Below, in pieces: positions 1 to 16,035 of a DNA stretch of 18,265 bases. Source of the DNA: Armatimonadota bacterium. GTDB lineage: Bacteria; Armatimonadota; Fimbriimonadia; Fimbriimonadales; GBS-DC. The position numbers and the translations under genes are program-made. The stretch is from contig JBBIJY010000037.1 of the NCBI GenBank assembly GCA_037445735.1, positions 1-18,265 of the forward strand, in the 5' to 3' direction. Numbering within the stretch: the stretch's first letter is position 1; each line of letters opens with the position of its first letter. Under the pieces are notes generated by a model that made no database searches, had not been told where the DNA came from, and saw nothing but the letters and a program-made list of their open reading frames with translations.

Positions 1-710
1 ACCAACCCATCACGACCCCCCGTTATCAAACGCCGCGTCGCAGGGTCATACGCCAGCGCCGTCACCGCGCCCCCGTGCGCCCCCGACACCACCACAGGAC
101 TCAAACTCGTCGCATTATAGTCCAGCAACACGATCCGCAGGTTCCCCAAACCATCTCCCGACACCACCAAACGATTATAACGCCGATCCCCACGATCCCC
201 ACGCAACACCAATACCGTACTCAAAGAATATATATCGACAGAAAAAAGCGAATTCCATCCGCTTATCGCCCACTCCTTCGGCGCCTCCAGATAACCCCCC
301 CGAAACGCCAGCGGATCCCGCACCCAGCGCCACATCCGGATGCTGTTCCCATACGACGCCACCACATACTCCTTGTTCGCCTCATCCCGATCCGTGAAAA
401 ACGACACCGCCTGCGGACAATAGTCATAACTCACCAGCGCGTGCCCCTTCGGCGTGGACGGATCCAGCAACTCCTGTGTCCGAAACACCATCGCCAGATA
501 CCCGTCCGCGCTCGCTGCCAGCAAATACGCCCCGTCCTCCGTGAACGCCACGGGCATCACATTAGTCGTCGCCGCCATATGCCACTGCAAGCTGGGACGA
601 TACGGCGGGTCTTGACCCCAAACCGCTCGCGGCGCTGTTCCCATGATCAACGCCGCAATCAAAGCCGCACCGACACCTACCTGATTCAACCGCTTGCTCA
701 TGCGCCTCAT
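1..710 (-). CDS. Secreted WD40/beta-propeller repeat protein (5' part; runs off the window edge)
   Basis: Not in the ORF track because there is no stop inside the window. I translated it by hand: MRRMSKRLNQVGVGAALIAALIMGTAPRAVWGQDPP..., with a signal-peptide-like N-terminus. It contains 'VMPVAFTEDGAYLLAASADG' and a canonical WD40 segment 'GAHGGAVTALAYDPATRRLITGGRDGL'. RBS AAGGAGGT at 716-723 (minus), 5 nt before the ATG at 710. Confidence 0.85.
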   Translation of the reverse strand, partial: MRRMSKRLNQVGVGAALIAALIMGTAPRAVWGQDPPYRPSLQWHMAATTNVMPVAFTEDGAYLLAASADGYLAMVFRTQELLDPSTPKGHALVSYDYCPQAVSFFTDRDEANKEYVVASYGNSIRMWRWVRDPLAFRGGYLEAPKEWAISGWNSLFSVDIYSLSTVLVLRGDRGDRRYNRLVVSGDGLGNLRIVLLDYNATSLSPVVVSGAHGGAVTALAYDPATRRLITGGRDGL

Positions 711-876
711 TGGTGACCTCCTTCCTGATTAGTATGTAAAATTTGGTACAGCTTGGGTACTGCGAAATTGGTGCTGCAGCAAGGTACATCGACTGCGTGG
801 CTGAAGTTTATGCGGAAGAAAGAAGCCCAAAGTGTCCTCTTTCCCACAGCACAAGATCAGCCCTAAACTGCTCCCT

Positions 877-906
877 ATTATACCCCATTTCGGGGGCGTT
901 TGTCAA
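877..906 (-). promoter_or_regulatory. Consensus sigma70 promoter, copy 1
   Basis: Minus strand reads TTGACA-N18-TATAAT (-35 at 901-906, -10 at 877-882), pointing at the WD40 gene. Confidence 0.85.
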
Positions 907-3288: not shown

Positions 3289-3325
3289 AACGCGCCTGAC
3301 CGGGTGTCGGGCGCGTGTTGCTTTT
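3289..3325 (+). terminator. Intrinsic terminator of the riboswitch expression platform
   Basis: Stem cgcgcctgac/gtcgggcgcg followed by tgttgctttt, just upstream of RBS AAGGAGGT (3343-3350). Confidence 0.6.
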
Positions 3326-3356
3326 AAACCCGCACCCACAGAAAGGAGGTCATGTG

Positions 3357-4370
3357 ATGAACGGACGAAGCATCCTGATCGGGCTAACGCTGCTGTGGGT
3401 GCAGCATGCAGGTTCGCAGGTGGCGGGTTATAGCCCGCCGACAGGCTATCGCGCCTTCTCGCTGGAGCTGAGCGGTGGCGTCGTTGCTGTCAGCCCCTCC
3501 GGGCAGCTGGCGGTCGCACGCGGTCGGTTCGGCGGAGGCGCGACAATCACCGTGTATGACCGCATTCGCCCCGATGGGCGCCAGGTGGTCGCCACCATCA
3601 GCGACAGTCGCTGGCAATTTTTCGGTGGGCTTGTCTGGCGCGACGCGAACACGCTGGTCTTCTCCGAGAACGGCGATCTGGACACCGTGCTGGAGTGGCG
3701 CATCGGCACGGGCGTCGCCCCGCTCGCGCCCGAAGGCTCTATCCCAAACGCGGCGGATGTGTTCATCCTGGGCAATCAGGTGCTGGCGCTCGGTGCGGAT
3801 GGACCCGGCGCGAATCGGCTCTATCGTGTGGCGAACGGCGCCGCCAGCGTGATTATCCACGGCTACGGCAACGGCTACGCAAGCGGCGTGAGCCTGCGCG
3901 GCGGCTGGCTCTATCTGGGCGATACGAACGACCCGCTCTTCGCGGGCAATCCGGGTCAGGTGCTGCGCTACGAGCCGCACTTCGACAGCAACGGCTTGCT
4001 GATTGGCGCCACGCTCGTCGCGACGCTCTCCCTCGCAGGCGGAGGCGGCTCCGGACTGGCGGGATTCGCCTTCGATTCGGAGGGCGATTTAATCGCCAGC
4101 ACGGGTCGCACGCTCACGCAGCTGCGCGGGTCGACGGCGACGCCGTTTGGCATCTTCAGCGGCGCGTATCCGTTTCCAGCGAGCCTTGCTTACTTCGGCG
4201 TGCGCTTCGAGCCGTTCAGCGGCGACGGGCTGTTAATCGTGGACGGCAGCTTCACGGAGGTGGGCGGGCTGTTCGCCATCACGCCCGTGCCGGAGCCGGG
4301 CACGCTCGGCATGCTGATGGCGGGGCTGATGGCGCTCGGCTGGCGTCGCCGCAGGGCACACCGCGCCTGA
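3357..4370 (+). CDS. PEP-CTERM sorting-domain surface protein, beta-rich (probable beta-propeller)
   Basis: Signal peptide MNGRSILIGLTLLWVQHAGS. C-terminus VPEPGTLGMLMAGLMALGWRRRR is PEP plus TM plus basic tail. Blade-like segments VAVSPSGQLAV, LVWRDANTLVFS and FAFDSEGDLIAS. The RBS fixes the start at 3357. Confidence 0.85.
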   Translation: MNGRSILIGLTLLWVQHAGSQVAGYSPPTGYRAFSLELSGGVVAVSPSGQLAVARGRFGGGATITVYDRIRPDGRQVVATISDSRWQFFGGLVWRDANTLVFSENGDLDTVLEWRIGTGVAPLAPEGSIPNAADVFILGNQVLALGADGPGANRLYRVANGAASVIIHGYGNGYASGVSLRGGWLYLGDTNDPLFAGNPGQVLRYEPHFDSNGLLIGATLVATLSLAGGGGSGLAGFAFDSEGDLIASTGRTLTQLRGSTATPFGIFSGAYPFPASLAYFGVRFEPFSGDGLLIVDGSFTEVGGLFAITPVPEPGTLGMLMAGLMALGWRRRRAHRA

Positions 4371-4381
4371 CGGGGTGAACC

Positions 4382-5356
4382 ATGCTCGCACGCGGGCTGA
4401 TTGCTATCGGGCTGGCGATCGCTGTCGCGTCGGCGAGCGCCCAGTATCGGGGCAGTTTCACCGAGCGCGATTTCGCCACGCGCGTGTTCGGCTGGAGCGG
4501 TGTCAACGGCGTGCCGGGCTTCAACACCGACCCGACACAGGTGCTGGGCTATCCGCCGCCGAACGCGACGCCAGGCGTGCCCGATAACACTAAGCTCTTC
4601 TCCTTCGGATGGGGCGGTTTCGTCGAGGTGGGCTTCGACCGCCCCATCCAGAACCTGCCCGCAGGGCTTGACCCGCACAATCCCGACGGCTACGACCTGA
4701 TTGTGTTTGGCAACGCCTTCTCTGTGGGCGGCAACCCCTGTCAGGTGTGGGGCGAGCCAGGCTATGTGGAGGTCGGTATCGACCGAAACGGCAACGGCGT
4801 CCCCGATGGTGGCGACGACTGGTACCTGCTGCTGCCGCGCCATCCCGACCCGCGCGATGCAACGGGCGTCCCGCGCTTCCCGCTGCCCGACCAGTGGTTC
4901 GGCTCGCTCAGCGTATGCCCGACGCCAATCGTGGGCTACGCCGACATCACGCCCATTACCAATCAGGGGCATCCGCTCGTGCCCGATGACCCGTTCACGC
5001 CAGGTATTCAGGGTCTCTCGGCGGGCGGGGACGCCTTCCAGCTGGAATGGGCGGTGGACTGGCAGACGGGTCAGCCCGTCGAGATCGATCAGGCGCAGTT
5101 CGTGCGTATCGTGCATGCAGGCAACGCCCCTCTGGGCGCGTTCGGGCGGTCTTCAACGGAGGTCAGCGCGATTGCGCTCGTGCGTCGCTATGGCGATACC
5201 AGCGCCGACGGCTGTGTGGACGACGCCGACCTGCTGACCGTGCTGTTCGAGTTCGGGCAGCACGGCGCCGCGCTCGCAGCCGATGTCAATCGCGACGGCA
5301 TCGTGGACGACGCCGACCTGCTGATTGTGCTGTTCAACTTCGGCAGCGGGTGTTAG
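4382..5356 (+). CDS. Secreted BtuH-like cell-surface protein (putative cobamide-binding) with C-terminal dockerin-like duplicated Ca-binding repeat
   Basis: Signal peptide ending ASA-Q. The motif series SFGWGGFVEVGFD...GYDLIVFGNAF...EPGYVEV...DRNGNGVPD..DDWYLL resembles the Bacteroides BtuH domain as I recall it. The tail is GDTSADGCVDDADLLTVLFEFG...ADVNRDGIVDDADLLIVLFNFG. Confidence 0.75.
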   Translation: MLARGLIAIGLAIAVASASAQYRGSFTERDFATRVFGWSGVNGVPGFNTDPTQVLGYPPPNATPGVPDNTKLFSFGWGGFVEVGFDRPIQNLPAGLDPHNPDGYDLIVFGNAFSVGGNPCQVWGEPGYVEVGIDRNGNGVPDGGDDWYLLLPRHPDPRDATGVPRFPLPDQWFGSLSVCPTPIVGYADITPITNQGHPLVPDDPFTPGIQGLSAGGDAFQLEWAVDWQTGQPVEIDQAQFVRIVHAGNAPLGAFGRSSTEVSAIALVRRYGDTSADGCVDDADLLTVLFEFGQHGAALAADVNRDGIVDDADLLIVLFNFGSGC

Positions 5357-5414
5357 TTTGCCAACACCGCGAGGCTGTGAACCGCGACAGCATCGTGGAC
5401 AGCCGAGCAGGAAA

Positions 5415-5563
5415 CCCCTCACCCCGACCCTCTCCCCAGCGGGAAGAGGGAGTCGTTCGCCCCTCTCCCCCGCGTGCGGGGGAGAGGGTACGGGTGAGGG
5501 GGCTATATACCGCACGCCTGCAGGAAACCCCTCACCCCAACCCTCTCCCCAGAGGGGAGAGGG
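5415..5563. repeat. REP-like cluster (three copies, alternating orientation) between convergent genes
   Basis: Copies at 5415-5450 (+), 5460-5502 (-) and 5528-5563 (+). Both + copies are preceded by gcaggaaa. Confidence 0.9.
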
Positions 5564-5595
5564 AGCCCGGCTCACAGAGCGCCCACACCCCTTTT

Positions 5596-6975
5596 TTACC
5601 ACCCATAGCGTTCGGGACCCCAGTCGCGATAGATGAGTTCCTGTTTGAGCAGCACCAGTTTGCGGCTGGGGATGTCTTCATAGACCACAATGCCTGCGCC
5701 GACGCAGCTGTACGCGCCAATCTTGACGCCGGGCATGGTGATGACATTCACGCCTGTGCGGGAGAAGTCGCCGAAGTAGGTGCCGTTCGCGCCGAACTCC
5801 GGGCGTTCGCGTCGCCCGCGCACCAGATGGATGGTGTCGCCATCGTCGAACCGCAGGGTGCCGCACACGGTCGCCGCGCCGATGTCCACCCGCTGACCCA
5901 CCACGCCCATAATCTCGCAATAGTGGAACAGGAAGGCGCCGTCGAGCATCACGCCGTCCATTTCGGCGTCGTGCCCCACGATGCAGCCGTTGCCGATGAC
6001 GGTCGTGCCGCTGATGAGGCAGTAGTCGCTGATGCGGCTGCGAGCGCCAATCGCGAGGTTGCCCCTGAGAATCGCGCCGTTGGTGATGCGCGTCTGGCGT
6101 CCGATGAAGGCGTTGCCCGCAATCACCACGCGCCTGCCAATCGATGCGCCCTCCTCCACCACGATGCGCCCCTCAATCTCGGCGGAGTCGTCGATCTGCA
6201 CATCCTTGCCGATGCGGTCGGCGTCAAGCTGCTGGGCTTCCCAGTCGAGCCAGCGGGCGTTCGCCTCCCAGATGTGCCACGGCTTGTCGATGTCCACCAG
6301 GAATCCGTCGGGTTCGACGCAGGGGATGTCGTGCCCCTGGCGGAGCAGCATCGGCAGGCACTCGGCGAGTTCGGCTTCGACGGGCGGCATGCCGCCGACG
6401 GGCACGCTGGTCATCAGTCCCGGATGGGCGTTCAGCACGGGCGCGATATGCGGGCTGAAGGCGAACAGTCCGCCCAGCCGATGGGTGGTGTCCGCGCTGT
6501 GCCCCTCTATGCTCATCAGGCGACCCTCACGCACATAGGCGCCAATCCAGTCGCGCGGGTCATGCTCTGGCAGGTAGGGCTGGGCGACGACCGCCGCGAT
6601 TGCCCCTGTGCGCTGGAAGGTCTCCATCAGGCGGCGAACGGTGCCCGGCGGCGTCGCGATATCGCCATACGCCACGAGGAACGGCTCCTCACCGATCAGG
6701 GGCAGCGCGCTCTGTAAGGCGTATGCTGTGCCTGCGGGCGGGTTCTGACGGATGAAGGCGACGGGGCAGGTCAGATCGTGCAGCGACGCCCGCACAGACG
6801 CCTCGAACGCGCCCACCACCACAATCAGCCGCTCGATGCCACCGGCTATCAGGCTCTCGGCGAGTCGGCGCACATTCGGGCGGTTCATCACGGGGATGGC
6901 AACCTTGTTGCGCACCTCGTTGTAGGGCCAGAATCGCCTGCCCTCGCCTGCAGCCATAATCACCGCCGTCTTCAT
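5596..6975 (-). CDS. Bifunctional sugar-1-phosphate nucleotidyltransferase/acetyltransferase (archaeal GlmU-like)
   Basis: N-terminal IMAAGEGRR..P....NK, VAYGD and DIDKPW motifs. C-terminal hexapeptide (LbH) repeats, with GTLRFDD and FGDFSRTGVNVITMPGVKIG. Confidence 0.85.
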   Translation of the reverse strand: MKTAVIMAAGEGRRFWPYNEVRNKVAIPVMNRPNVRRLAESLIAGGIERLIVVVGAFEASVRASLHDLTCPVAFIRQNPPAGTAYALQSALPLIGEEPFLVAYGDIATPPGTVRRLMETFQRTGAIAAVVAQPYLPEHDPRDWIGAYVREGRLMSIEGHSADTTHRLGGLFAFSPHIAPVLNAHPGLMTSVPVGGMPPVEAELAECLPMLLRQGHDIPCVEPDGFLVDIDKPWHIWEANARWLDWEAQQLDADRIGKDVQIDDSAEIEGRIVVEEGASIGRRVVIAGNAFIGRQTRITNGAILRGNLAIGARSRISDYCLISGTTVIGNGCIVGHDAEMDGVMLDGAFLFHYCEIMGVVGQRVDIGAATVCGTLRFDDGDTIHLVRGRRERPEFGANGTYFGDFSRTGVNVITMPGVKIGAYSCVGAGIVVYEDIPSRKLVLLKQELIYRDWGPERYGW

Positions 6976-6987
6976 AGGGCGACCCCT

Positions 6988-7293
6988 TTACGGCAAGCGG
7001 ATTGCGGACTGGTTCTCGCGTGTGGTCTCCAGTGCGCGCACGCGCTCCTGCAGGTTCTCCAGATTTTCCTGCAGGCTCATGTCGTACTCGGTGGAGGTAC
7101 GGCGCAGTTCGGCAAGCTCGCGGCGCAGCGCTTCGATCTGCGCGATCAGCTCCTGGTTTGCCACCGCGCGCCGCTCCAGCTCCATCCGCGCCATGTCCTT
7201 GCGATGCTTCAGCACCATCGCTGTCACCGGGATAATGACAGCAGGTCCGAAGATAAACAGCACAGCGACCAGTCCTGTCAGTTCGCCAATCAT
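6988..7293 (-). CDS. Small single-pass membrane protein with cytoplasmic coiled coil (hypothetical)
   Basis: 101 aa. Hydrophobic LVAVLFIFGPAVIIPVTAMVL is followed by heptad-rich LIAQIEALRRELAELRR...LQERVRALE. ATGA overlap with the upstream gene. Confidence 0.75.
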   Translation of the reverse strand: MIGELTGLVAVLFIFGPAVIIPVTAMVLKHRKDMARMELERRAVANQELIAQIEALRRELAELRRTSTEYDMSLQENLENLQERVRALETTRENQSAIRLP

Positions 7294-8967: not shown

Positions 8968-8996
8968 TTGACAAACGGCTTCATGCGTAGTATATT
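8968..8996 (+). promoter_or_regulatory. sigma70 promoter of the 9078-12345 operon
   Basis: TTGACA (8968-8973), 17 nt, TATATT (8991-8996). Confidence 0.8.
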
Positions 8997-9077
8997 TAAT
9001 TCCCAGTAGCCTGAACAGCCGCATGAGGCTTGGTTTGCAGGCTGCTGATCGAAATTCTGTCAAACGGAGGGTCAGTG

Positions 9078-10430
9078 ATGAATCAACGCAATCGCTGGAT
9101 TGCTGGAGCGAGCGCCTTTACAGTGGTGGCGCTGATAAGCATGTCGTTTGCGCAGTCTGTCAAGGCTCAACCATCCGAGCCTTACGCCCCGTCGATTGTC
9201 GTTCAGGAGCAAGGCCCCGTTGATCTCAATCTGAGCTGGGAGCTGGTTCCACGCGCCCCCATCAAGTTCACCCCGTTTGACATGGTGGACCCGAATACGG
9301 GGAAACCTGTTCGCCCCGATGATTGGATCGAAGTGAACGGTGTCAGAGTAAAGGCGGGCGAGTTTTATCGCCGTTTGAACGAGATGGAGCGCTGGCTTAA
9401 CGAGCGCGGCTACTCTCTCCGCACGGATACCCATTTTGAATACTACTCTCCGGAACTGGAAGCCCAGATCGCCGATTCAGAGCGTCGCCTGCGCGAGTTT
9501 GAGGCGCGGATACCGATAGAGGGCGAACCTGGGGAAGATCAGTTCTATCCCGCCGCCTGTACAGGCGATAGCCGAAGTTTCGACACGAACTGGTATGGAA
9601 ACAGCCTGTGGGGTCTTCGCCTGTATGGTTCTGGAAGTTTTCAAGCTTGCTTCCCAGGCAACAACGGGAGCATCGCCTCTGGCACGGTCAATGGGCAAGC
9701 ACAACTGGACGGGCGATTAGCCAATTTTACCCGAACCATTGCTCAAGCGAATGGTGCTGCCAGCGGCAACCTGCGGATGCAATATGTTGGTGGCAGTCTG
9801 TCAACATACTTAGAGTATAGCTACAACATCAGCGTCAGCGTTTTTGGGAATCAGGTCTGGGGTCCCAGTGGTTCCGGGCAGGTTCCCCTCTCCTATACGC
9901 GCAGCTGGAACTGGCAGATTGCCAGCTTTAACTGGTCTAGTCCAACCATCAAGTTGGGATGCATCTCTATATTGGGCATTCCCATTTGCTTGAATGGGCA
10001 AGTAGGTGTTAGCGGATCTGCATATCTCACAGCATCCGTCGATATTAATCTATTTGCCCAAACTGCTTCTGTGCGCCCCTATGGCTCCGCCAGTGGTTGG
10101 GCGGCTGCTTGGATTGGTGCGAACGCTGGCTTAGCGCGTGTAGAGGCGGGTGTGCGCGGCACACTCAACTTCTTCAACGGCGGCATTGAAGGGCGTGCTA
10201 CTGGCAACCTGAGCATCGCATCTAATTGCGCCCTCTATAACTTTAATGCTCAGCTGAATGCCTCTATTTCCGCTCTAAGTGGTCAAGTGGAAGCCTTCGC
10301 ACGCGGCTGCATCTGGTTCTTCGGCTGGCGATGCGCAGAAGGCTCCATTCGCCTTTTCTCCTGGGACGGTCTGAACTGGAATCAGACAATAGGTCAGTTC
10401 TCCCGAACTTACCCGATCTACTGCTGGTAA
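9078..10430 (+). CDS. Secreted hypothetical protein with small N-terminal domain and long amphipathic beta-sheet C-terminal region
   Basis: RBS GGAGG at 9066-9070 and a signal peptide (…ISMSFA-Q). About 450 aa. The C-terminal two-thirds is G/A/S/N-rich with alternating hydrophobic strands and 8 Cys. Confidence 0.85.
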   Translation: MNQRNRWIAGASAFTVVALISMSFAQSVKAQPSEPYAPSIVVQEQGPVDLNLSWELVPRAPIKFTPFDMVDPNTGKPVRPDDWIEVNGVRVKAGEFYRRLNEMERWLNERGYSLRTDTHFEYYSPELEAQIADSERRLREFEARIPIEGEPGEDQFYPAACTGDSRSFDTNWYGNSLWGLRLYGSGSFQACFPGNNGSIASGTVNGQAQLDGRLANFTRTIAQANGAASGNLRMQYVGGSLSTYLEYSYNISVSVFGNQVWGPSGSGQVPLSYTRSWNWQIASFNWSSPTIKLGCISILGIPICLNGQVGVSGSAYLTASVDINLFAQTASVRPYGSASGWAAAWIGANAGLARVEAGVRGTLNFFNGGIEGRATGNLSIASNCALYNFNAQLNASISALSGQVEAFARGCIWFFGWRCAEGSIRLFSWDGLNWNQTIGQFSRTYPIYCW

Positions 10431-10442
10431 ACCTGGTTATAT

Positions 10443-10470
10443 CCCTCCCACGGGGTTCCCCGTGGGAGGG
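10443..10470. other. Perfect intercistronic inverted repeat (hairpin)
   Basis: ccctcccacgggg-tt-ccccgtgggaggg, ending 3 nt before RBS AAGGAGG (10474-10480). Confidence 0.8.
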
Positions 10471-10485
10471 TCTAAGGAGGTTTCC

Positions 10486-12345
10486 ATGATTCGTCTGATA
10501 GCAATTGCCATCATAGCTATTCTTTCTTCTTATAGTTCCTTCTCGCAGGTAAGAAATCTCGAACTTCACTACAAAGTTGACGGAGAGAGCCGCTCCCACT
10601 TCTGGATGCAAGGGCTTCAGAATCAACCACCCACCCAACAGCCTGAGTGGAGCGCTATTAATCATTTTTCTTATGATATTATCTTGACCTTGCTAAGGGA
10701 GAATCTGTGGCGAATAGATTGGAAAAACTGGCAGATTAATGGCTTCATTCCCGAATCGTTCAAGCCGCTACTGGATTATGTTCAAAAAATCACTCCTATA
10801 TATGTGCATCGCTATTCTGGCGGGCACCTGCAATTTGCATGCCCGCGCATTAAGGAGGTGTGGCAGCGCCAAGCCGTTGGTGGTATACTCTGGTACTTTC
10901 AATTTGTACGCCCATCTCGCAATGCCTCAGAATGGCGCGTGAAGGAGGCACATCCAAGCGGAATGATTATTTGCCGATATCGACTGGTACGCCAGACCAA
11001 AACAGTGCGCATCTACCGCAAAAGTGTTGAGGAGGTTCTGATTCCTGCTACCGAAAAGCAAATGGGTAAACAGCACCGAATAGAGGGGTACTTAACTTAT
11101 GAAATCGACCGCAAAGGTGTCATTATGCGAGTTAGTGGAACCCTCCAGGAGCGTGTGAATCTGTATGGTATTTCAACAACAAATACAAAACAGGCGATTC
11201 GAATCACCCTTCAGAAGCGCCAGCAGCTTGCTTCTTCGCGTTTATTAGTTTTGCGAAGTCAGGTGGAACAGGTTTTTCAGTCTCATCCCCGTTACTCGCT
11301 GTATGCCCCGCCGACCGAAGAGGAGCAAAGCCTTCTTCGAGCACAAAGTATTCTACAAGGCACTCAACCGGAGCAGCTTTTGAAAGAGGTGGTAACACTG
11401 CGCCGAAACCTACCCAGCGATCCTCAGAGGCGTCAGGATTTACTAACGAAACTGGCGCTGCGGCTGGAATCGGCTCTTACCTTGCATCCTGATAAAATGT
11501 TCCCAGCTATTAAAAAAATGCTGGAACAATCTGAAGCGGCTGATGAGTTTTACTGGACTCTTCTGCGGCTTCTGACCGATTCATCCTCAGCGGAAGCGCA
11601 AGCTATTCTGTTGGAACAATTAGGTTCTTCTTCGGAAGAGAAGCGCTTAGCCGCAGCGCGTCAAATCGCTTGGTTGCGCCGACCGTCGCCTGACACCTTC
11701 CAAAAACTCTGGCAGCAAGCGCAAAGTGCCGATGCTGAGATCCGCTCAACACTGGAAATCAGTCTCAGTATCCTTGCTAAATCCCTTCCTGACAGCGCGA
11801 AGAACTTGATCGACCAGTTTGCTACCTGGGCGATGAACAATCTGCAAAGCGCGATCGATGAAAACAACGAGCCGAACCAGATTCACTGGCTGCGCGTGGC
11901 GATTAACCTGGCACATCCTATCTTCTGGGATACTGTAGCGAAGCTGGTGAAAAGTGGTTCGGAACAAGTGCGCTTGCTGGCTGTGGAAGCGCTAAGCAAG
12001 CAAGATATCAAGCGTGCGTTTCCTGTTCTGCGATCGAGTTTCGAAATGGAGCCGTCTCTATCGGTACGCGAGGCAGTTGTGTTCCATGCTGTGCGGCAAG
12101 GCTGGGAACTCTCCGAGGTGCGCGTTTTCATAGAGTGGGCTGCATTTAATGATCCCGAATTGCGTATACGCAAGGCATGCGTACAGGTTCTGCTGGAGCT
12201 GGCGCCGAAAAGTCAGCAGGCTATCAATCTGCTGGCTCAGATTGCGGAGCGGAATTCGATGCCGGCTATTCGGCGCGAAGCGATGATCGCGCTGGCGGCC
12301 CTACATGCCAGCGGTATCAAGGTGCCCGATTTAAAGGGACGCTAA
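10486..12345 (+). CDS. Secreted HEAT-repeat protein with N-terminal beta domain (vitellogenin-N/MTP-like architecture)
   Basis: Signal peptide MIRLIAIAIIAILSSYSSFS. The first ~240 aa are beta-rich, including WRVKEAHPSGMIICRY. HEAT-like repeats follow: EEKRLAAARQIA, EQVRLLAVEALS, LSVREAVV, LRIRKACVQVL, PAIRREAMIALA. Confidence 0.8.
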   Translation: MIRLIAIAIIAILSSYSSFSQVRNLELHYKVDGESRSHFWMQGLQNQPPTQQPEWSAINHFSYDIILTLLRENLWRIDWKNWQINGFIPESFKPLLDYVQKITPIYVHRYSGGHLQFACPRIKEVWQRQAVGGILWYFQFVRPSRNASEWRVKEAHPSGMIICRYRLVRQTKTVRIYRKSVEEVLIPATEKQMGKQHRIEGYLTYEIDRKGVIMRVSGTLQERVNLYGISTTNTKQAIRITLQKRQQLASSRLLVLRSQVEQVFQSHPRYSLYAPPTEEEQSLLRAQSILQGTQPEQLLKEVVTLRRNLPSDPQRRQDLLTKLALRLESALTLHPDKMFPAIKKMLEQSEAADEFYWTLLRLLTDSSSAEAQAILLEQLGSSSEEKRLAAARQIAWLRRPSPDTFQKLWQQAQSADAEIRSTLEISLSILAKSLPDSAKNLIDQFATWAMNNLQSAIDENNEPNQIHWLRVAINLAHPIFWDTVAKLVKSGSEQVRLLAVEALSKQDIKRAFPVLRSSFEMEPSLSVREAVVFHAVRQGWELSEVRVFIEWAAFNDPELRIRKACVQVLLELAPKSQQAINLLAQIAERNSMPAIRREAMIALAALHASGIKVPDLKGR

Positions 12346-12354
12346 GGCGCACCA

Positions 12355-13728
12355 TTAGAACAGGATTGCCTTCGCTACCAGAAAATAGATGAGCAGCCCT
12401 GCAGCGTCTATTAAGGTGGTGATGGCGGGCGCGGACATCACCGCCGGGTCGATATTGAGCCGTTTGGCGAGCAGGGGCAGCATCGCGCCCACCAGCGTCG
12501 CCAGCAGAATAATCAGCATCTGCGCAATGCCAACGGTGAGCGCCAGCCCAAACGCGATAGCGCGATGGCGGGGGTCGATCCATGTCCAGAAGAAGGCGTT
12601 GGCGATGCCGATTAGACCGATAATGGCTCCAAGCAGCAGCCCTGTCAGCGCCTCACGCCCCATCACGCGCAGAATCTGTCCCCAGCGCACCTCACCCAAG
12701 GCGATCGCGCGGGTGACGGTGGTGGTGGTCTGGGCGCCCGCGTTGCCGCCCGTACCAATCAGCAGCGGCACAAACCACGCCAGTGCCGTCACCGCGCTCA
12801 ACTCCTCATCATAGTGGCGCAATACCGTGCCCGTGAGCCGCTCGGCAATAAACAGCAGAATGAGCCAGCGCACCCGCTTGCGCACCAGATCCCACGGCGA
12901 CTGGCTCAGATACGGCTCTTCGGTCGCCTCCACCGCGCCCAGCTTCAGCACATCCTCCGTGCTTTCACTCACCAGAATATCGACCACATCGTCGATGGTT
13001 ACAATCCCCAGCATGCGCCCCAGCTCGTCCACCACTGGCACGGCTAACAGGTCATACTTGGAGAGCAGGTTCGCGACCTCTTCCTGGTCGGTGGCGGGCT
13101 GAACCACCACCAGGTCGGTCTCCATAATCTGCTCGATGCGCTTGCTGGGGTCTGCCAGCACCAGCTCGCGCAGGGAACAGACGCCCACCAGCCGCTGGCG
13201 CGTGTCCACCGCATAAAGATAGTAGATGGTCTCGATGTCGGGTCCGATCTGGCGCAGGTGGTCGAGGGCTTGTTCGACCGTCCATTCGGGTCGCACGCGC
13301 ACATACTGGCGCACCATCAGGCGTCCAGCGGTGTTGGGAGGATATTCGAGCAGCTCGCGCACATCGCGCGCTTCGGGTGGCGCCATCTGCTGGAGCAGGG
13401 CTTCGGCTTTTGGCTCCTCCAGCTCTTCAAGAATCTGGGCGGCGTCGTCGGCGGGCAGAGCCTGCAGCAGGCGGGCGGCTTTGTCCAGCGGGATATGTTC
13501 GAAAATCTCTTCCACCAGCACGGGTTCGAGGTAGTCCAGCACTTCGGCTGCCTGTTCTTCGGGCATCTGGACAAGCACCAGCGCCTGCTGGGCGGGGTCA
13601 TCCAGCAGGGTGAGCGCTTCGGCGATATCCTGTGGCGGGATGTCCTGCACAATCGCAGGGATCAGCCCGTCGGTCGCCTGAAGTTCCTCGCGCAATCGCT
13701 CCGCCAGTGCCTCCACACGCTCCGGCAT
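12355..13728 (-). CDS. mgtE: Magnesium transporter MgtE
   Basis: N-domain, CBS pair (TAGRLM...YYLYAVD...KYDLLAVPVVD...GIVTIDD) and TM domain with GTGGNAGAQ and IDPAVMSAPAITTLID. RBS GGAGGTG at 13734-13740. Confidence 0.96.
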   Translation of the reverse strand: MPERVEALAERLREELQATDGLIPAIVQDIPPQDIAEALTLLDDPAQQALVLVQMPEEQAAEVLDYLEPVLVEEIFEHIPLDKAARLLQALPADDAAQILEELEEPKAEALLQQMAPPEARDVRELLEYPPNTAGRLMVRQYVRVRPEWTVEQALDHLRQIGPDIETIYYLYAVDTRQRLVGVCSLRELVLADPSKRIEQIMETDLVVVQPATDQEEVANLLSKYDLLAVPVVDELGRMLGIVTIDDVVDILVSESTEDVLKLGAVEATEEPYLSQSPWDLVRKRVRWLILLFIAERLTGTVLRHYDEELSAVTALAWFVPLLIGTGGNAGAQTTTTVTRAIALGEVRWGQILRVMGREALTGLLLGAIIGLIGIANAFFWTWIDPRHRAIAFGLALTVGIAQMLIILLATLVGAMLPLLAKRLNIDPAVMSAPAITTLIDAAGLLIYFLVAKAILF

Positions 13729-13796: not shown

Positions 13797-15122
13797 ATGC
13801 AATCGAGTCTGTTTGGGGAGAATCGGGCGGCGGCGCGGTTGCCGCTGGCGACCCGCATGCGCCCACGCACCTTCGACGAGTTCGTGGGTCAGCAGCACCT
13901 GCTCGCGCCCGGCATGCCTATCCGTCAAGCAATCGAGCAGGGCACGCTGGGGTCGGTGATTCTGTGGGCGCCGCCAGGATGTGGTAAGACCAGCCTCGCC
14001 TACCTGATCGCGCACTATTCGGGCGCGTTTGTGGAAGCGCACAGCGCTGTCAGCGTCGGCATCGCCGAGATTCGTAAGCTGGCAGAACGCGCCCGCCACC
14101 GCCAGCGCACCAGCGGTCAGCCCACCCTGCTGGTGCTGGACGAAATCCACCACTTCAACCGCACCCAGCAGGACGCCCTGCTGGGCTATCTGGAGGACGG
14201 GACCTTCACGCTGGTGGGCGCAACGACCGAGAACCCATTTTTTATCCTCTCTAACGCCCTGCTCTCGCGGGCGCGGGTGCTGACCCTCCAGCCGCTCAGC
14301 GACGAGGAGGTGCGCCTGCTGATCGAACGCGCGCTCCGCGATACCGAGCGCGGGCTGGGCGAGCTGAACCTGCAGATGGAACCCGACGCGCTGAGCCACC
14401 TGATACGGAGCGCGAACGGCGACGCCCGCCTCGCGCTCAATATCCTGGAGACCGCCGCCATGCAAACGCCGCCCGGCGGCACCATCCCGCTCGCGCTGAT
14501 CGAACAGCTCCTGCAGAAACCGATGGTGCGCTACGACCAGCAGGGCGACTATCACTACGACACCATCTCGGCGTTCATCAAGTCGGTTCGGGGCAGCGAC
14601 CCCGACGCCGCCCTGCACTATCTGGCGCGGATGCTGATAGCAGGCGAGGACCCACGCTTCATCATGCGACGGCTGCTGATTCTGGCGAGCGAGGATGTGG
14701 GCAACGCGAACCCGCTGGGGCTGGTGGTGGCATCGGCAGGCGCGCAGGCGGTCGAGCGCGTCGGCATGCCCGAAGCCCAGCTCATTCTGGCGCATGTGAC
14801 GGTCTATCTGGCGACCTCGCCCAAGAGCAACGCCTGCTATCTCGCCCTGCAGCGGGCGCTGCGCGATGTCCAGCAAAAACCTCTGCCGCCCATCCCGTTG
14901 CACCTGCGGAACGCGCCCCATCCCGCGCTCAGAGCGATGGGACATGCGGAAGGCTATCTCTACCCGCACGACTTCCCGCAAGGCTGGGCGCCCCAAACTT
15001 ATCTGCCCGAAGGCGACTGGCAACTGCCCTACTATGAACCCACCGCGCGCGGCGACGAAGCCCGTATCCAGGAATTTCTCAACTATTTACGCCATTTAAA
15101 GAATATTCAGAAAAGCGAATAA
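13797..15122 (+). CDS. rarA: Replication-associated recombination protein A (MgsA/RarA AAA+ ATPase)
   Basis: [61 protein letters not shown] and PLHLRNAP. Confidence 0.96.
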   Translation: MQSSLFGENRAAARLPLATRMRPRTFDEFVGQQHLLAPGMPIRQAIEQGTLGSVILWAPPGCGKTSLAYLIAHYSGAFVEAHSAVSVGIAEIRKLAERARHRQRTSGQPTLLVLDEIHHFNRTQQDALLGYLEDGTFTLVGATTENPFFILSNALLSRARVLTLQPLSDEEVRLLIERALRDTERGLGELNLQMEPDALSHLIRSANGDARLALNILETAAMQTPPGGTIPLALIEQLLQKPMVRYDQQGDYHYDTISAFIKSVRGSDPDAALHYLARMLIAGEDPRFIMRRLLILASEDVGNANPLGLVVASAGAQAVERVGMPEAQLILAHVTVYLATSPKSNACYLALQRALRDVQQKPLPPIPLHLRNAPHPALRAMGHAEGYLYPHDFPQGWAPQTYLPEGDWQLPYYEPTARGDEARIQEFLNYLRHLKNIQKSE

Positions 15123-15196
15123 GGCATAACTCCCACTGCGAACCCGCGGCAACCCTGTAGCCTGTGATGATGGCTGGCATGGGTATACTGTTTCCC

Positions 15197-16006
15197 ATGC
15201 AGACGCGCGTCCTGATTGTGGCGATTGCAGCGGGTCTCTTCGCGCTGGCAGCCGATAACAAGCCGAAAACTTTCACGGAACGCCTGCTCGGCACCACCGT
15301 GCAGTTCGAGATGGTGGAAATCCCGGCGGGCACGATTGAAATGCCCGATCCCGGCGACCCGAACAGAACCCTCACCGTCTCCATCAAACGCTTCTGGATT
15401 GGCAGGACGGAGGTCACCTGGGACGAGTACGGCACCTACGCTTTCAATCAGGAGATTGCGTCGGTGGAAAAGGAGCGCGGCGCCGACGCGATTGCCAAGC
15501 CGAGCAAGCCGTACGGCGCCATCGATCGCGGCTACGGCTATGAGGGCTATCCCGCAATCGGTATGACCTATGTGGCTGCCCAGCGCTACTGTGAATGGCT
15601 CAGCCGCATAACGGGCAAAAAGTATCGCCTGCCAACCGAAGCTGAGTGGGAGTACGCCTGTCGCGCAGGCATGCTGAAACGCGAACCCCTGCCCGCTGAA
15701 CAACTGCAAAAGATGGCGTGGTACAGAGAGAACTCTAACAACAAGCCCCAGCCGGTGGGCAAAAAGACGCCGAATGCGTGGGGCTTGTATGACATGCTGG
15801 GCAATGTGATGGAGTGGTGTCAGGGTCTGGATGGCAAGCCCATCGCCTGCGGCGGCTCCTTCAAAGACCCCGCCGAGAAAGTGCATCCGGGCGCCCGCGA
15901 ACGCCAGACACCCCAGTGGAACATGACCGACCCCCAGTACCCTAAAAGCCGCTGGTGGCTCTCCGATGCGCCCTTCGTGGGTTTCAGGGTTATCTGTGAG
16001 GAGTAG
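15197..16006 (+). CDS. Secreted formylglycine-generating enzyme (FGE-sulfatase/SUMF1) domain protein
   Basis: IGRTEVTWDEY, YRLPTEAEWEYACRAG, PNAWGLYDMLGNVMEWC and GFRVI. Signal peptide MQTRVLIVAIAAGLFALAA. Confidence 0.9.
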   Translation: MQTRVLIVAIAAGLFALAADNKPKTFTERLLGTTVQFEMVEIPAGTIEMPDPGDPNRTLTVSIKRFWIGRTEVTWDEYGTYAFNQEIASVEKERGADAIAKPSKPYGAIDRGYGYEGYPAIGMTYVAAQRYCEWLSRITGKKYRLPTEAEWEYACRAGMLKREPLPAEQLQKMAWYRENSNNKPQPVGKKTPNAWGLYDMLGNVMEWCQGLDGKPIACGGSFKDPAEKVHPGARERQTPQWNMTDPQYPKSRWWLSDAPFVGFRVICEE

Positions 16007-16035
16007 CTTCGCTGGCACTTTTTCAGCCAGCATGC

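What the first reader, a model, noticed from the sequence alone, without database searches (positions are those of the whole stretch)
9078..12345. Two-gene operon resembling a split vitellogenin/MTP-type large lipid transfer protein
Seen: two co-oriented genes with signal peptides behind one strong promoter. Gene B (10486) has a beta-rich N-terminal ~240 aa with W-x-V-x-E-x3-G-x4-RY followed by YRKS, then a HEAT-like alpha solenoid. Gene A (9078) ends in ~280 aa of long amphipathic G/A/S-rich strands (GQVGVSGSAYLTASV...AGVRGTLNFF...LSGQVEAFA...LFSWDG). Known: large lipid transfer proteins (vitellogenin/lipovitellin, MTP, apoB) consist of an N-terminal beta domain, an alpha-helical solenoid, and amphipathic C-terminal sheets that line the lipid cavity. 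Inference: B supplies the N-sheet and solenoid and A supplies the lipid-binding sheets, forming a secreted heterodimeric lipid carrier or lipoprotein-like particle in a bacterium.
Basis: partly seen in the sequence, partly recalled or inferred. Interest (0 to 1): 0.85.

Follow-up and report, generated by a model that had tools for sequence, protein, structure and literature searches.

The report
Two-gene bacterial vitellogenin/MTP-like lipid carrier
Two neighbouring exported genes of an uncultured Armatimonadota bacterium together look like a split, bacterial version of the animal lipid carriers MTP, vitellogenin and apoB, a protein class so far treated as an animal invention, although lipid binding itself has not been shown.

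Summary
Gene A (9078-10430, 450 aa) and gene B (10486-12345, 619 aa) are co-oriented. Both start with signal-peptide-like N-termini and sit behind one near-consensus promoter.

B is a true relative of the front half of large lipid transfer proteins (LLTPs).
- Its confident model (pLDDT 88.7) has LLTPs as its eight best Foldseek matches (MTP 3e-16).
- The whole chain runs co-linear with lipovitellin residues 19-621 (542 aligned).
- Sequence support is sub-threshold: Pfam Vitellogenin_N 21.4 bits against a cut-off of 24. Several relatives pass.

An A-type gene directly precedes every B-type gene examined (21 of 21 outside the window, across several phyla). No third gene is conserved. The predicted A-B complex scores 0.74 against 0.02 for the best control.

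Most likely this is an exported heterodimer with an MTP-sized hydrophobic pocket. Lipid binding is inferred, not shown.

The locus has low G+C, and its alleles are far older than the flanking genes. Earlier notes of this scan describe similar pairs on other DNA. My six literature searches turned up no paper describing one.

The parts
8968..8996 (+). Promoter-like site TTGACA-17 nt-TATATT upstream of gene A
   Evidence: 11 of 12 consensus matches. The -35 box and most of the -10 box are conserved in the near-identical relative L045. Function not shown.
9066..9071 (+). Shine-Dalgarno GGAGGG of gene A, 6 nt before the ATG
   Evidence: Read from the sequence.
9078..10430 (+). Gene A (450 aa): exported partner protein with signal peptide, conserved N-domain and long-stranded beta region
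   Evidence: ORF and translation. 41 relatives. No Pfam, NCBIfam or PDB sequence match. Model pLDDT 74.6.
9078..9170 (+). Signal-peptide-like N-terminus of A (residues 1 to about 31)
   Evidence: Read from the sequence. The same type of N-terminus, ending ..AQ or ..SQ, appears in 34 of 34 aligned relatives. No predictor was run.
9225..9527 (+). Conserved N-domain of A (residues ~50-150). It is the most invariant part of the family and its fold and role are unknown.
   Evidence: 31 of the 41 invariant columns lie in residues 54-174. It also occurs in longer proteins and in one protein without a B partner. No atlas lead.
9558..10424 (+). Beta region of A (residues 161-449): 14 long amphipathic strands, candidate equivalent of the LLTP C- and A-sheets
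10443..10470 (+). Perfect 12-bp G+C-rich stem-loop between the A stop codon and the Shine-Dalgarno of B
   Evidence: MFE -31.5 kcal/mol, z -3.73, 0 of 200 shuffles fold as well. A stem-loop of different sequence sits at the same place in relatives.
10474..10480 (+). Shine-Dalgarno AAGGAGG of gene B, 5 nt before the ATG
   Evidence: Read from the sequence.
10486..12345 (+). Gene B (619 aa): exported LLTP-type barrel plus helical solenoid
   Evidence: ORF. Model pLDDT 88.7. Foldseek and VIA. Pfam HEAT_2 6.8e-15 and Vitellogenin_N 21.4 bits.
10549..11313 (+). B residues 22-276: N-terminal beta barrel (LLTP N-sheet type)
11314..12342 (+). B residues 277-619: HEAT-like alpha solenoid (LLTP helical domain type). 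Its concave face is predicted to clamp A.
   Evidence: Helices 278-608. Profile match to MTP 344-523, E 8.4e-4. Periodic low-error contacts with A at B 321-325, 357-361, 389-396, 425-429 and 470-474.

Best explanation
A and B are the two halves of a bacterial, MTP-sized member of the large-lipid-transfer-protein architecture. They are made from one transcript and both are exported through the Sec pathway.

B supplies the N-terminal beta barrel and the helical solenoid. These correspond to the 'Vitellogenin_N' module of MTP, lipovitellin and apoB. A supplies a small, highly conserved N-domain and about 290 residues of long amphipathic strands, stapled by probable disulfides.

The strands of A dock into the concave face of B's solenoid and against B's barrel. 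This is how the C- and A-sheets sit in MTP. The result would be a 1:1 heterodimer that encloses a hydrophobic pocket for a few lipid or other hydrophobic molecules. The complex would pick up, hold or hand over such cargo in the periplasm or outside the cell.

Shown here (computationally):
- the genes and their families;
- B's fold relationship to LLTPs;
- strict A-then-B adjacency across phyla;
- a predicted large interface.

Inferred:
- that A is the equivalent of the lipid-binding sheets;
- that the cargo is lipid;
- the compartment;
- that the stem-loop between the genes sets the A:B ratio.
For: B is an LLTP front half.
- Foldseek ranks 1-8 of 39 matches with E <= 0.001 are MTP (3.1e-16), lipovitellin (1.4e-13), bee vitellogenin and apoB. 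Generic HEAT proteins start at 8.2e-5.
- The family profile's best PDB sequence hit is MTP, E 8.4e-4, co-linear.
- 6 of 8 family members hit Vitellogenin_N at E <= 0.01.
- 6 of 10 remote relatives and 7 of 9 partner-locus B proteins pass Pfam's cut-off.

A as the sheets.
- The 2 Foldseek matches with E <= 0.001 are both MTP chains, followed by lipovitellin and vitellogenin.
- MTP is the only match covering the whole beta region at low rmsd: 247 aligned at 5.0 A and 236 at 4.2 A, against chain 373/390..877.
- Eight Cys columns are conserved in 24-33 of 34 members, which fits an exported, non-membrane protein.

Partnership.
- B follows A on the same strand in 13 of 13 informative genome-contig loci. 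A 14th is cut by its contig end.
- The same holds in 8 of 8 distant pairs in 7 genomes of the phylum.
- Only these two families are shared by all 20 loci compared.
- Predicted complex: ipSAE 0.74 (runs 0.73, 0.74, 0.79), best of 3 controls 0.02. The tool's calibration: the mark was reached by 58 of 80 solved complexes and 2 of 110 mismatched pairs. Runs agree in at least 72% of contacts. Partner pLDDT is at least 76.
- MTP Asp361 and Asn479 hold the C-sheet tip (passages of PMC6717300). In the profile alignment they align with B R361 and N474. Both are among the lowest-error contacts to A.
- Interface residues are slightly more conserved than the rest. A: 8 of 90 changed against 56 of 304, Fisher p 0.034. 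B across the family: p 0.039.
Against: - No lipid binding, expression or protein has been observed. No RNA run holds the locus.
- A has no sequence similarity to any LLTP or Pfam family: 0 of 34 close and 0 of 9 distant A proteins.
- A's model is only moderately confident (pLDDT 74.6).
- The window's B scores 21.4 bits, under Pfam's cut-off of 24. The C-terminal part of that profile also hits plain HEAT proteins.
- The barrel disulfide shared by MTP, lipovitellin and apoB has no conserved counterpart. B has a single invariant Cys.
- The complex predictor may reproduce solved single-chain LLTPs from memory. My own alignments were used, so its calibration holds only roughly.
- Gene order is A then B, the reverse of the domain order in LLTPs.
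- The stem-loop after A could mean unequal amounts of A and B.
- One protein carrying A's N-domain has no B neighbour (G012).
Confidence: 0.6

Rival explanations
1. A is a membrane-inserting beta protein, either an outer-membrane barrel or a pore-forming toxin-like protein. B is merely its soluble holder or chaperone, which shields A's amphipathic hairpins until delivery. The LLTP-like front half would have been recruited for protein holding, not lipid holding.
For: - A has long amphipathic Gly/Ala/Ser-rich hairpins.
- Most family members end in an aromatic residue.
- The stem-loop after A may give more A than B.
- Alleles at the locus are unusually divergent, as for exposed or weapon-like proteins.
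Against: - The barrel and pore matches have rmsd 13-23 A and Foldseek E >= 0.12, so there is no real superposition.
- Four probable disulfide pairs are unusual for outer-membrane barrels.
- The C-terminus is not a conserved beta-signal pattern.
- About 360 predicted contacts bury much of A against B, as for an obligate partner.
Confidence: 0.12
2. A and B do form an LLTP-shaped exported complex, but its job is not lipid carriage. It could instead recognise or bind surface polymers or other cells, as vitellogenins bind microbial surfaces, or it could be a structural envelope component.
For: - A's most conserved part is the N-domain, which lies outside the predicted interface. This suggests a conserved external ligand or partner.
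- Longer A versions carry extra domains such as an Ig-like Big_1 (sub-threshold, 25.6 bits against 34.9).
- Divergent alleles in near-identical genomes and a patchy distribution fit an accessory, outward-facing function.
- Vitellogenin's immune roles appear in the abstracts listed.
Against: - The conserved core of the pair is exactly the set of parts that form the lipid cavity in LLTPs.
- A's strands are amphipathic, with one hydrophobic face in several strands.
- No binding domain of known specificity was found in this window's A.
Confidence: 0.15
3. The resemblance of B to LLTPs is convergent: a HEAT solenoid that happens to follow a barrel. A is an unrelated neighbour.
For: - The window's B is under Pfam's cut-off.
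- The Vitellogenin_N profile cross-hits plain HEAT proteins in its last third.
Against: - Only LLTPs align over 480-542 residues spanning both domains in the same order.
- The Pfam match of B starts inside the barrel (residues 157-505 against profile 195-525).
- Adjacency holds in 21 of 21 loci, with a predicted interface.
Confidence: 0.05

Closest known systems
Microsomal triglyceride transfer protein large subunit (MTP; PDB 6I7S, 8EOJ), the smallest LLTP
   Same: - It is the best sequence-profile hit (E 8.4e-4).
- A's beta region (~290 aa) has the size of MTP's C-terminal lipid-binding domain, residues 604-884 (passages of PMC6717300). It gives the best full-length low-rmsd match.
- The predicted docking uses the concave face of the solenoid and the barrel, as described for MTP.
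   Different: - Split over two genes, with the sheet gene first.
- No PDI partner.
- A carries an extra conserved N-domain.
- The barrel disulfide is not conserved.
- Sec-exported in a bacterium instead of resident in the ER.
- Identity is only 6-14%.
Lipovitellin / vitellogenin (PDB 1LSH, 9ENR, 9ENS) and apoB-100 (9BD1, 9BD8)
   Same: - These are also Foldseek hits for A (2.8e-3 and 1.5e-2).
   Different: - They are far larger single chains with funnel-like cavities that hold many lipids, plus further domains (vWD, DUF1943 and others).
- Nothing in the pair suggests a lipoprotein particle.
Pfam PF01347 Vitellogenin_N
   Same: - B matches residues 157-505 to profile positions 195-525.
- 6 of 10 remote relatives reach 29-67 bits. 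7 of 9 partner-locus B proteins reach 34-59 bits.
   Different: - The window's own B scores 21.4 bits, under the 24-bit cut-off.
- The last third of the profile also rings in plain HEAT proteins.
Split LLTP-like pairs noted earlier by this scan in other genomes (e1-5456746, e1-2659600, e1-2878194, e1-3344855)
   Same: They describe the same idea: a vitellogenin-type front-half gene next to a sheet-rich partner.
   Different: - They are on other DNA and in other taxa, and some have extra modules or a third gene.
- They are unchecked notes, not independent evidence.

Membership tests
[quoted passage not shown] | N-terminal beta barrel (N-sheet) of the lipovitellin/apoB/MTP type | tested here: met
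   [not shown]
[quoted passage not shown] | Two-layer helical solenoid directly after the barrel, co-linear with LLTPs | tested here: met
   [not shown]
[quoted passage not shown] | C- and A-sheets that line the lipid cavity, in the same polypeptide after the solenoid | tested here: not met
   B ends with the solenoid at residue 619. A candidate equivalent is encoded by the separate upstream gene A. No fused form appeared among the 106 phmmer hits, where the long hits match only in HEAT repeats. None appeared among longer proteins either, which is weak evidence.
[quoted passage not shown] | Partner A has the fold of the LLTP lipid-binding sheets | tested here: inconclusive
   [not shown]
[quoted passage not shown] | Conserved barrel disulfide (MTP Cys174-Cys194 = lipovitellin Cys156-Cys182 = apoB Cys186-Cys212; passages of PMC6717300) | tested here: not met
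   Only one Cys (C163) is invariant in the 8 aligned B proteins. C118 of the window's B is not conserved. Residue-level equivalence to the LLTP cysteines was not established.
[quoted passage not shown] | Binds or transfers lipid | not testable with these tools
   Needs purified protein, lipidomics and a transfer assay.
Pfam PF01347 Vitellogenin_N | Whole-protein score at or above the curated cut-off (24 bits) | tested here: not met
   The window's B scores 21.4 bits, E 1.1e-4. Relatives pass: 6 of 10 and 7 of 9. 6 of 8 close members hit at E <= 0.01, best 3.2e-7. So B is a divergent member of a family whose other members qualify.
Outer-membrane beta-barrel proteins (considered for A) | Closed transmembrane barrel that superposes on known barrels, with a C-terminal beta-signal | tested here: inconclusive
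   [not shown]

The most novel reading that the evidence does not exclude
This two-gene module belongs to an old, widespread bacterial family that is the prokaryotic sister or ancestor of the animal apoB/MTP/vitellogenin superfamily. On this reading the lipoprotein-forming fold arose in bacteria as a heterodimer, with a barrel-solenoid clamp plus a separate sheet subunit. It would have reached the animal lineage by gene transfer, followed by fusion with a change of order. Bacteria would then have an unrecognised class of exported bulk-lipid carriers.
Probability: 0.3. Interest if true: 0.9.

Novelty: new variant of a known kind. Interest (0 to 1): 0.78.

Why it matters
LLTPs (apoB, MTP, vitellogenin, apolipophorin) underlie lipoprotein assembly and yolk formation. 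The papers I saw treat them as an animal superfamily (abstract of PMC1783640 in the listing).

A conserved bacterial version split into a clamp subunit and a sheet subunit would matter in four ways:
- It gives a tractable, minimal system to test how the fold captures lipid without PDI or apoB.
- It makes the origin of the superfamily testable by phylogeny.
- It adds a new kind of exported lipid-handling protein to bacterial envelope and scavenging biology.
- The divergent alleles and patchy spread hint at an ecological, outward-facing role worth testing.

Tried and rejected
Searches that gave nothing useful:
- Sequence searches of A gave no Pfam, NCBIfam or PDB family. The best PDB hit was a chance-level uL24 match, E 0.94.
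- The protein atlas gave only unnamed bacterial clusters for A and nothing for its N-domain.
- Longer (fused) relatives of A: none at E <= 0.001 among 8000 scored candidates. The tool itself calls this weak evidence.
- Plasmid collection: no tblastn match for A or B.
- Expression: no RNA holder is listed. Only DNA runs of one study hold the stretch, one of which may be the source. I did not lay reads.

Ideas tested and dropped:
- Third conserved gene: none found. The only other shared 'families' were shadow ORFs inside A and B.
- Excess change at the interface: I tested whether the segments that differ most between the window and its close relative are enriched at the predicted interface. They are not. 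Interface residues are, if anything, more conserved.
- Synteny: only the near-identical genome L045 shares the flanks. The other loci share nothing but A and B.

Literature: the listings I read showed no paper on a bacterial LLTP, vitellogenin-like or MTP-like protein. The library lacks most subscription journals, and supplements were not seen.

Tool availability: VIA libraries were busy, and were run later.

- superposing the predicted heterodimer on MTP;
- measuring a cavity;
- folding A's beta region alone.
Full report
**1. What is in the sequence**

The window carries two co-oriented ORFs:
- A at 9078-10430 (450 aa from the ATG);
- B at 10486-12345 (619 aa from the ATG).

Both begin with a short basic stretch, a hydrophobic core and a small-residue cleavage-type region, without a lipobox Cys. 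This is read from the sequence; no predictor was run.

A promoter-like site TTGACA-17-TATATT (11 of 12 matches) lies at 8968-8996. The region as a whole has no excess of such sites (4 found, 3.0 expected). A has a GGAGGG Shine-Dalgarno at 9066-9071 and B has AAGGAGG at 10474-10480.

Between the A stop and B's Shine-Dalgarno lies a perfect 12-bp G+C-rich stem-loop at 10443-10470 (z -3.7; 0 of 200 shuffles fold as well).

The flanking genes are housekeeping:
- ilvC, a sugar-phosphate isomerase-like TIM barrel and a PEP-CTERM protein;
- a GlmU-like transferase and a metallophosphoesterase;
- trpC, divergent from A;
- mgtE, convergent with B and 9 bp away;
- rarA/mgsA and ftsH.

The pair has 54.6% (A) and 50.0% (B) G+C, against 63-64% in the flanks.

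**2. Gene B**

Sequence evidence:
- Pfam gives HEAT_2 (6.8e-15). It also gives a sub-threshold Vitellogenin_N match: 21.4 bits against a cut-off of 24, E 1.1e-4, residues 157-505 on profile positions 195-525.
- The word-indexed search found 7 relatives of 36-41% identity. Two carry a precomputed Vitellogenin_N label and one comes from 'bacterium HR15'.
- 6 of the 8 aligned family members (window included) hit Vitellogenin_N at E <= 0.01, best 3.2e-7.
- The family profile's best hit among PDB sequences is MTP (E 8.4e-4), co-linear over profile 361-533 against MTP 344-523.

Structural evidence:
- AlphaFold2 on the 8-sequence alignment gave a confident model (pLDDT 88.7). It shows a beta barrel to about residue 276, then 16 helices.
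- In Foldseek against the PDB, ranks 1-8 are MTP (3.1e-16), lipovitellin (1.4e-13), bee vitellogenin, apoB-100 and the apoB barrel (5.8e-9). Designed and natural HEAT/ARM proteins follow from 8.2e-5.
- Only LLTPs align across both domains: lipovitellin 542 residues (B 22..597 against 19..621), bee vitellogenin 540, MTP 517, apoB 480.

The wider family:
- An exhaustive phmmer search of 1.84 billion representatives found 106 proteins at E <= 1e-3. Most are 550-740 aa and aligned from the barrel into the solenoid.
- Of ten such remote relatives, six pass Pfam's Vitellogenin_N cut-off at 29-67 bits.

A caveat: the last third of that Pfam profile also matches plain HEAT proteins in this phylum. It matches nothing in 14 control genomes.

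I conclude that B is a divergent member of a bacterial family homologous to the LLTP front half.

**3. Gene A**

A has 41 relatives (37-82% identity) but no Pfam, NCBIfam or PDB sequence match, either singly or as a 34-sequence profile.

The most invariant part is an N-domain at about residues 50-150. Eight Cys columns are conserved in 24-33 of 34 members. Their positions suggest four disulfides (161/191, 295/304, 384/449, 411/419). The pairing is my inference.

The model (pLDDT 74.6) shows two helices and then 14 long strands over residues 161-449.

Foldseek:
- The only 2 matches at E <= 0.001 are the two MTP chains (9.9e-5 and 4.9e-4).
- Next come lipovitellin (2.8e-3) and bee vitellogenin (1.5e-2).
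- Outer-membrane barrels and pore formers start at E 0.12.
- All TM-scores are low, 0.27 at best.

VIA second look:

The Foldseek-free VIA search:

So A is not modelled as a closed membrane barrel. Its best whole-domain likeness is the MTP lipid-binding domain, which has the same size (residues 604-884 in MTP; passages of PMC6717300). On its own, this structural evidence is inconclusive.

**4. The two genes belong together**

- The window's own genome has one copy of each gene.
- In genome contigs, 14 loci encode an A relative. In 13 of them a B relative follows directly on the same strand, and the 14th is cut by its contig end right after A starts. The 13 include MAGs labelled proteobacterium and Blastocatellia.
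- Among 301 sampled genomes of the phylum, an A-profile match occurs in 10.
- Long B-profile matches occur in the window's genome plus seven others.
- In all seven, an A-type gene matching in both the N-domain and the beta region lies immediately upstream of the B-type gene (7 of 7). One of these genomes has a second such pair.
- Across the 20 loci compared, A and B are the only shared families. For that comparison I left out L045, which is near-identical, and L056, which is cut.

Against strict coupling:
- In G012, a protein matching mainly A's N-domain is followed by a GH16 gene and a sugar-kinase-like gene, with no B.
- In G239, the ORF after the A-type gene is cut by the contig end and has no Pfam hit.

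**5. Predicted complex**

ESMFold2 on B 22-619 plus A 50-450, using my own alignments, gave ipSAE 0.73, 0.74 and 0.79 (median 0.74), against 0.02 for the best of 3 controls. The tool's calibration is that the mark was reached by 58 of 80 solved complexes and 2 of 110 mismatched pairs. The three runs share at least 72% of their contacts, partner pLDDT is at least 76, and there are 355-373 contacts. This supports binding but does not show it. Because single-chain LLTP structures are solved, the pass may partly reflect that likeness.

The geometry fits the description of MTP in PMC6717300:
- A touches B's barrel (residues 33-236).
- With roughly 35-residue periodicity, A also touches the concave face of the solenoid (B 321-325, 357-361, 389-396, 425-429, 470-474).

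MTP Asp361 and Asn479 are named in that paper as holding the C-sheet tip. They align with B R361 and N474 in the profile alignment. Both are among the lowest-error contacts to A.

Interface residues are slightly more conserved than the rest. That comparison is confounded by burial.

**6. Further anatomy**

- A stem-loop directly after the A stop is present in the window and in all 11 close loci. The sequences are unrelated. 10 of these 12 have z <= -2.75, while L048 and L050 have only short stems that are not significant. Blastocatellia locus L058 has one too, and proteobacterial locus L057 has no clear one.
- Several of these stems are followed by U-rich stretches (L046, L049, L051, L053). 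I infer a leaky terminator or an mRNA-stabilising element that would favour A over B. This is untested.
- Against near-identical genome L045, the flanking genes are 97-99% identical with dS 0.07-0.10. A is 83% identical (dS 0.59) and B is 90% identical (dS 0.33), with dN/dS 0.14-0.20.
- The alleles are therefore much older than the genomes and remain under purifying selection. Together with the low G+C and the lack of synteny elsewhere, this points to allele exchange at a horizontally acquired two-gene cassette. It was not found on known plasmids.

**7. Mechanism and comparison**

Most likely (0.6) the pair is an exported heterodimer with the LLTP architecture and an MTP-sized hydrophobic pocket. 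B would be the clamp and A the pocket-forming sheets. The cargo (lipid) and the compartment are inferred.

It works like MTP or lipovitellin but is not a canonical member:
- the sheets are on a separate, upstream gene;
- the barrel disulfide is not conserved;
- there is no PDI;
- the window's B is under Pfam's cut-off.

Rivals are a membrane-inserting A held by B (0.12), an LLTP-shaped complex with a non-lipid role (0.15), and convergence (0.05).

**8. Novelty**

Six literature searches listed no paper on a bacterial LLTP-like protein. The library lacks most subscription journals, and supplements were closed.

Earlier notes of this scan describe similar split pairs on other DNA. They are unchecked and are not used as evidence.

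I rate this a new variant of a known kind, of high interest for the origin and the minimal mechanism of the lipoprotein fold.

Noticed in passing
window 9078-12345 compared with L045:5497-9244: Against a near-identical genome, the flanking genes are 97-99% identical with dS 0.07-0.10. A has dS 0.59 (83% identity) and B has dS 0.33 (90% identity), with dN/dS 0.14-0.20. The alleles at this locus are therefore much older than the genomes, which points to allele exchange. A residues 211-277 are the most divergent at 43-67% identity.
   Followed up: partly
window 10443-10470; same position in L045-L055 and L058: A G+C-rich stem-loop directly after the A stop is kept in structure but not in sequence across relatives. 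Some copies have a U-rich tail. It may be a leaky terminator or an mRNA stabiliser that sets the A:B ratio.
   Followed up: partly
window 15107-16033 (- strand): This 308-aa ORF has no family match. Against L045 it shows dN/dS 1.06 (88% identity at dS 0.061), while its neighbours are at 0.05-0.16. It is either a fast-evolving gene or not a real gene in this frame.
   Followed up: no
window 3315-4370 and 4382-5356 (+ strand): A PEP-CTERM sorting-signal protein sits next to a 324-aa protein with a weak GC-type dockerin C-terminus (22.7 bits, under the cut-off of 29). ORFs sharing this C-terminus flank the A-B pair in L046, L048 and L050. This may only reflect a high copy number of that family.
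   Followed up: partly
L067 (G012:C49) 4294-5538; L066 (G239:C172) 4150-7140; L068 (G006:C1) 3443-6709; L063 5578-8409: A's conserved N-domain also occurs in other architectures. These are proteins of 944-1089 aa (one with a sub-threshold Ig-like Big_1 domain) and a 414-aa protein that has no B-type neighbour. It therefore behaves as a separable module of unknown fold.
   Followed up: partly
window 12343-12357: B's stop codon and the stop of the convergent mgtE gene are only 9 bp apart, and no terminator-like site lies between them.
   Followed up: no
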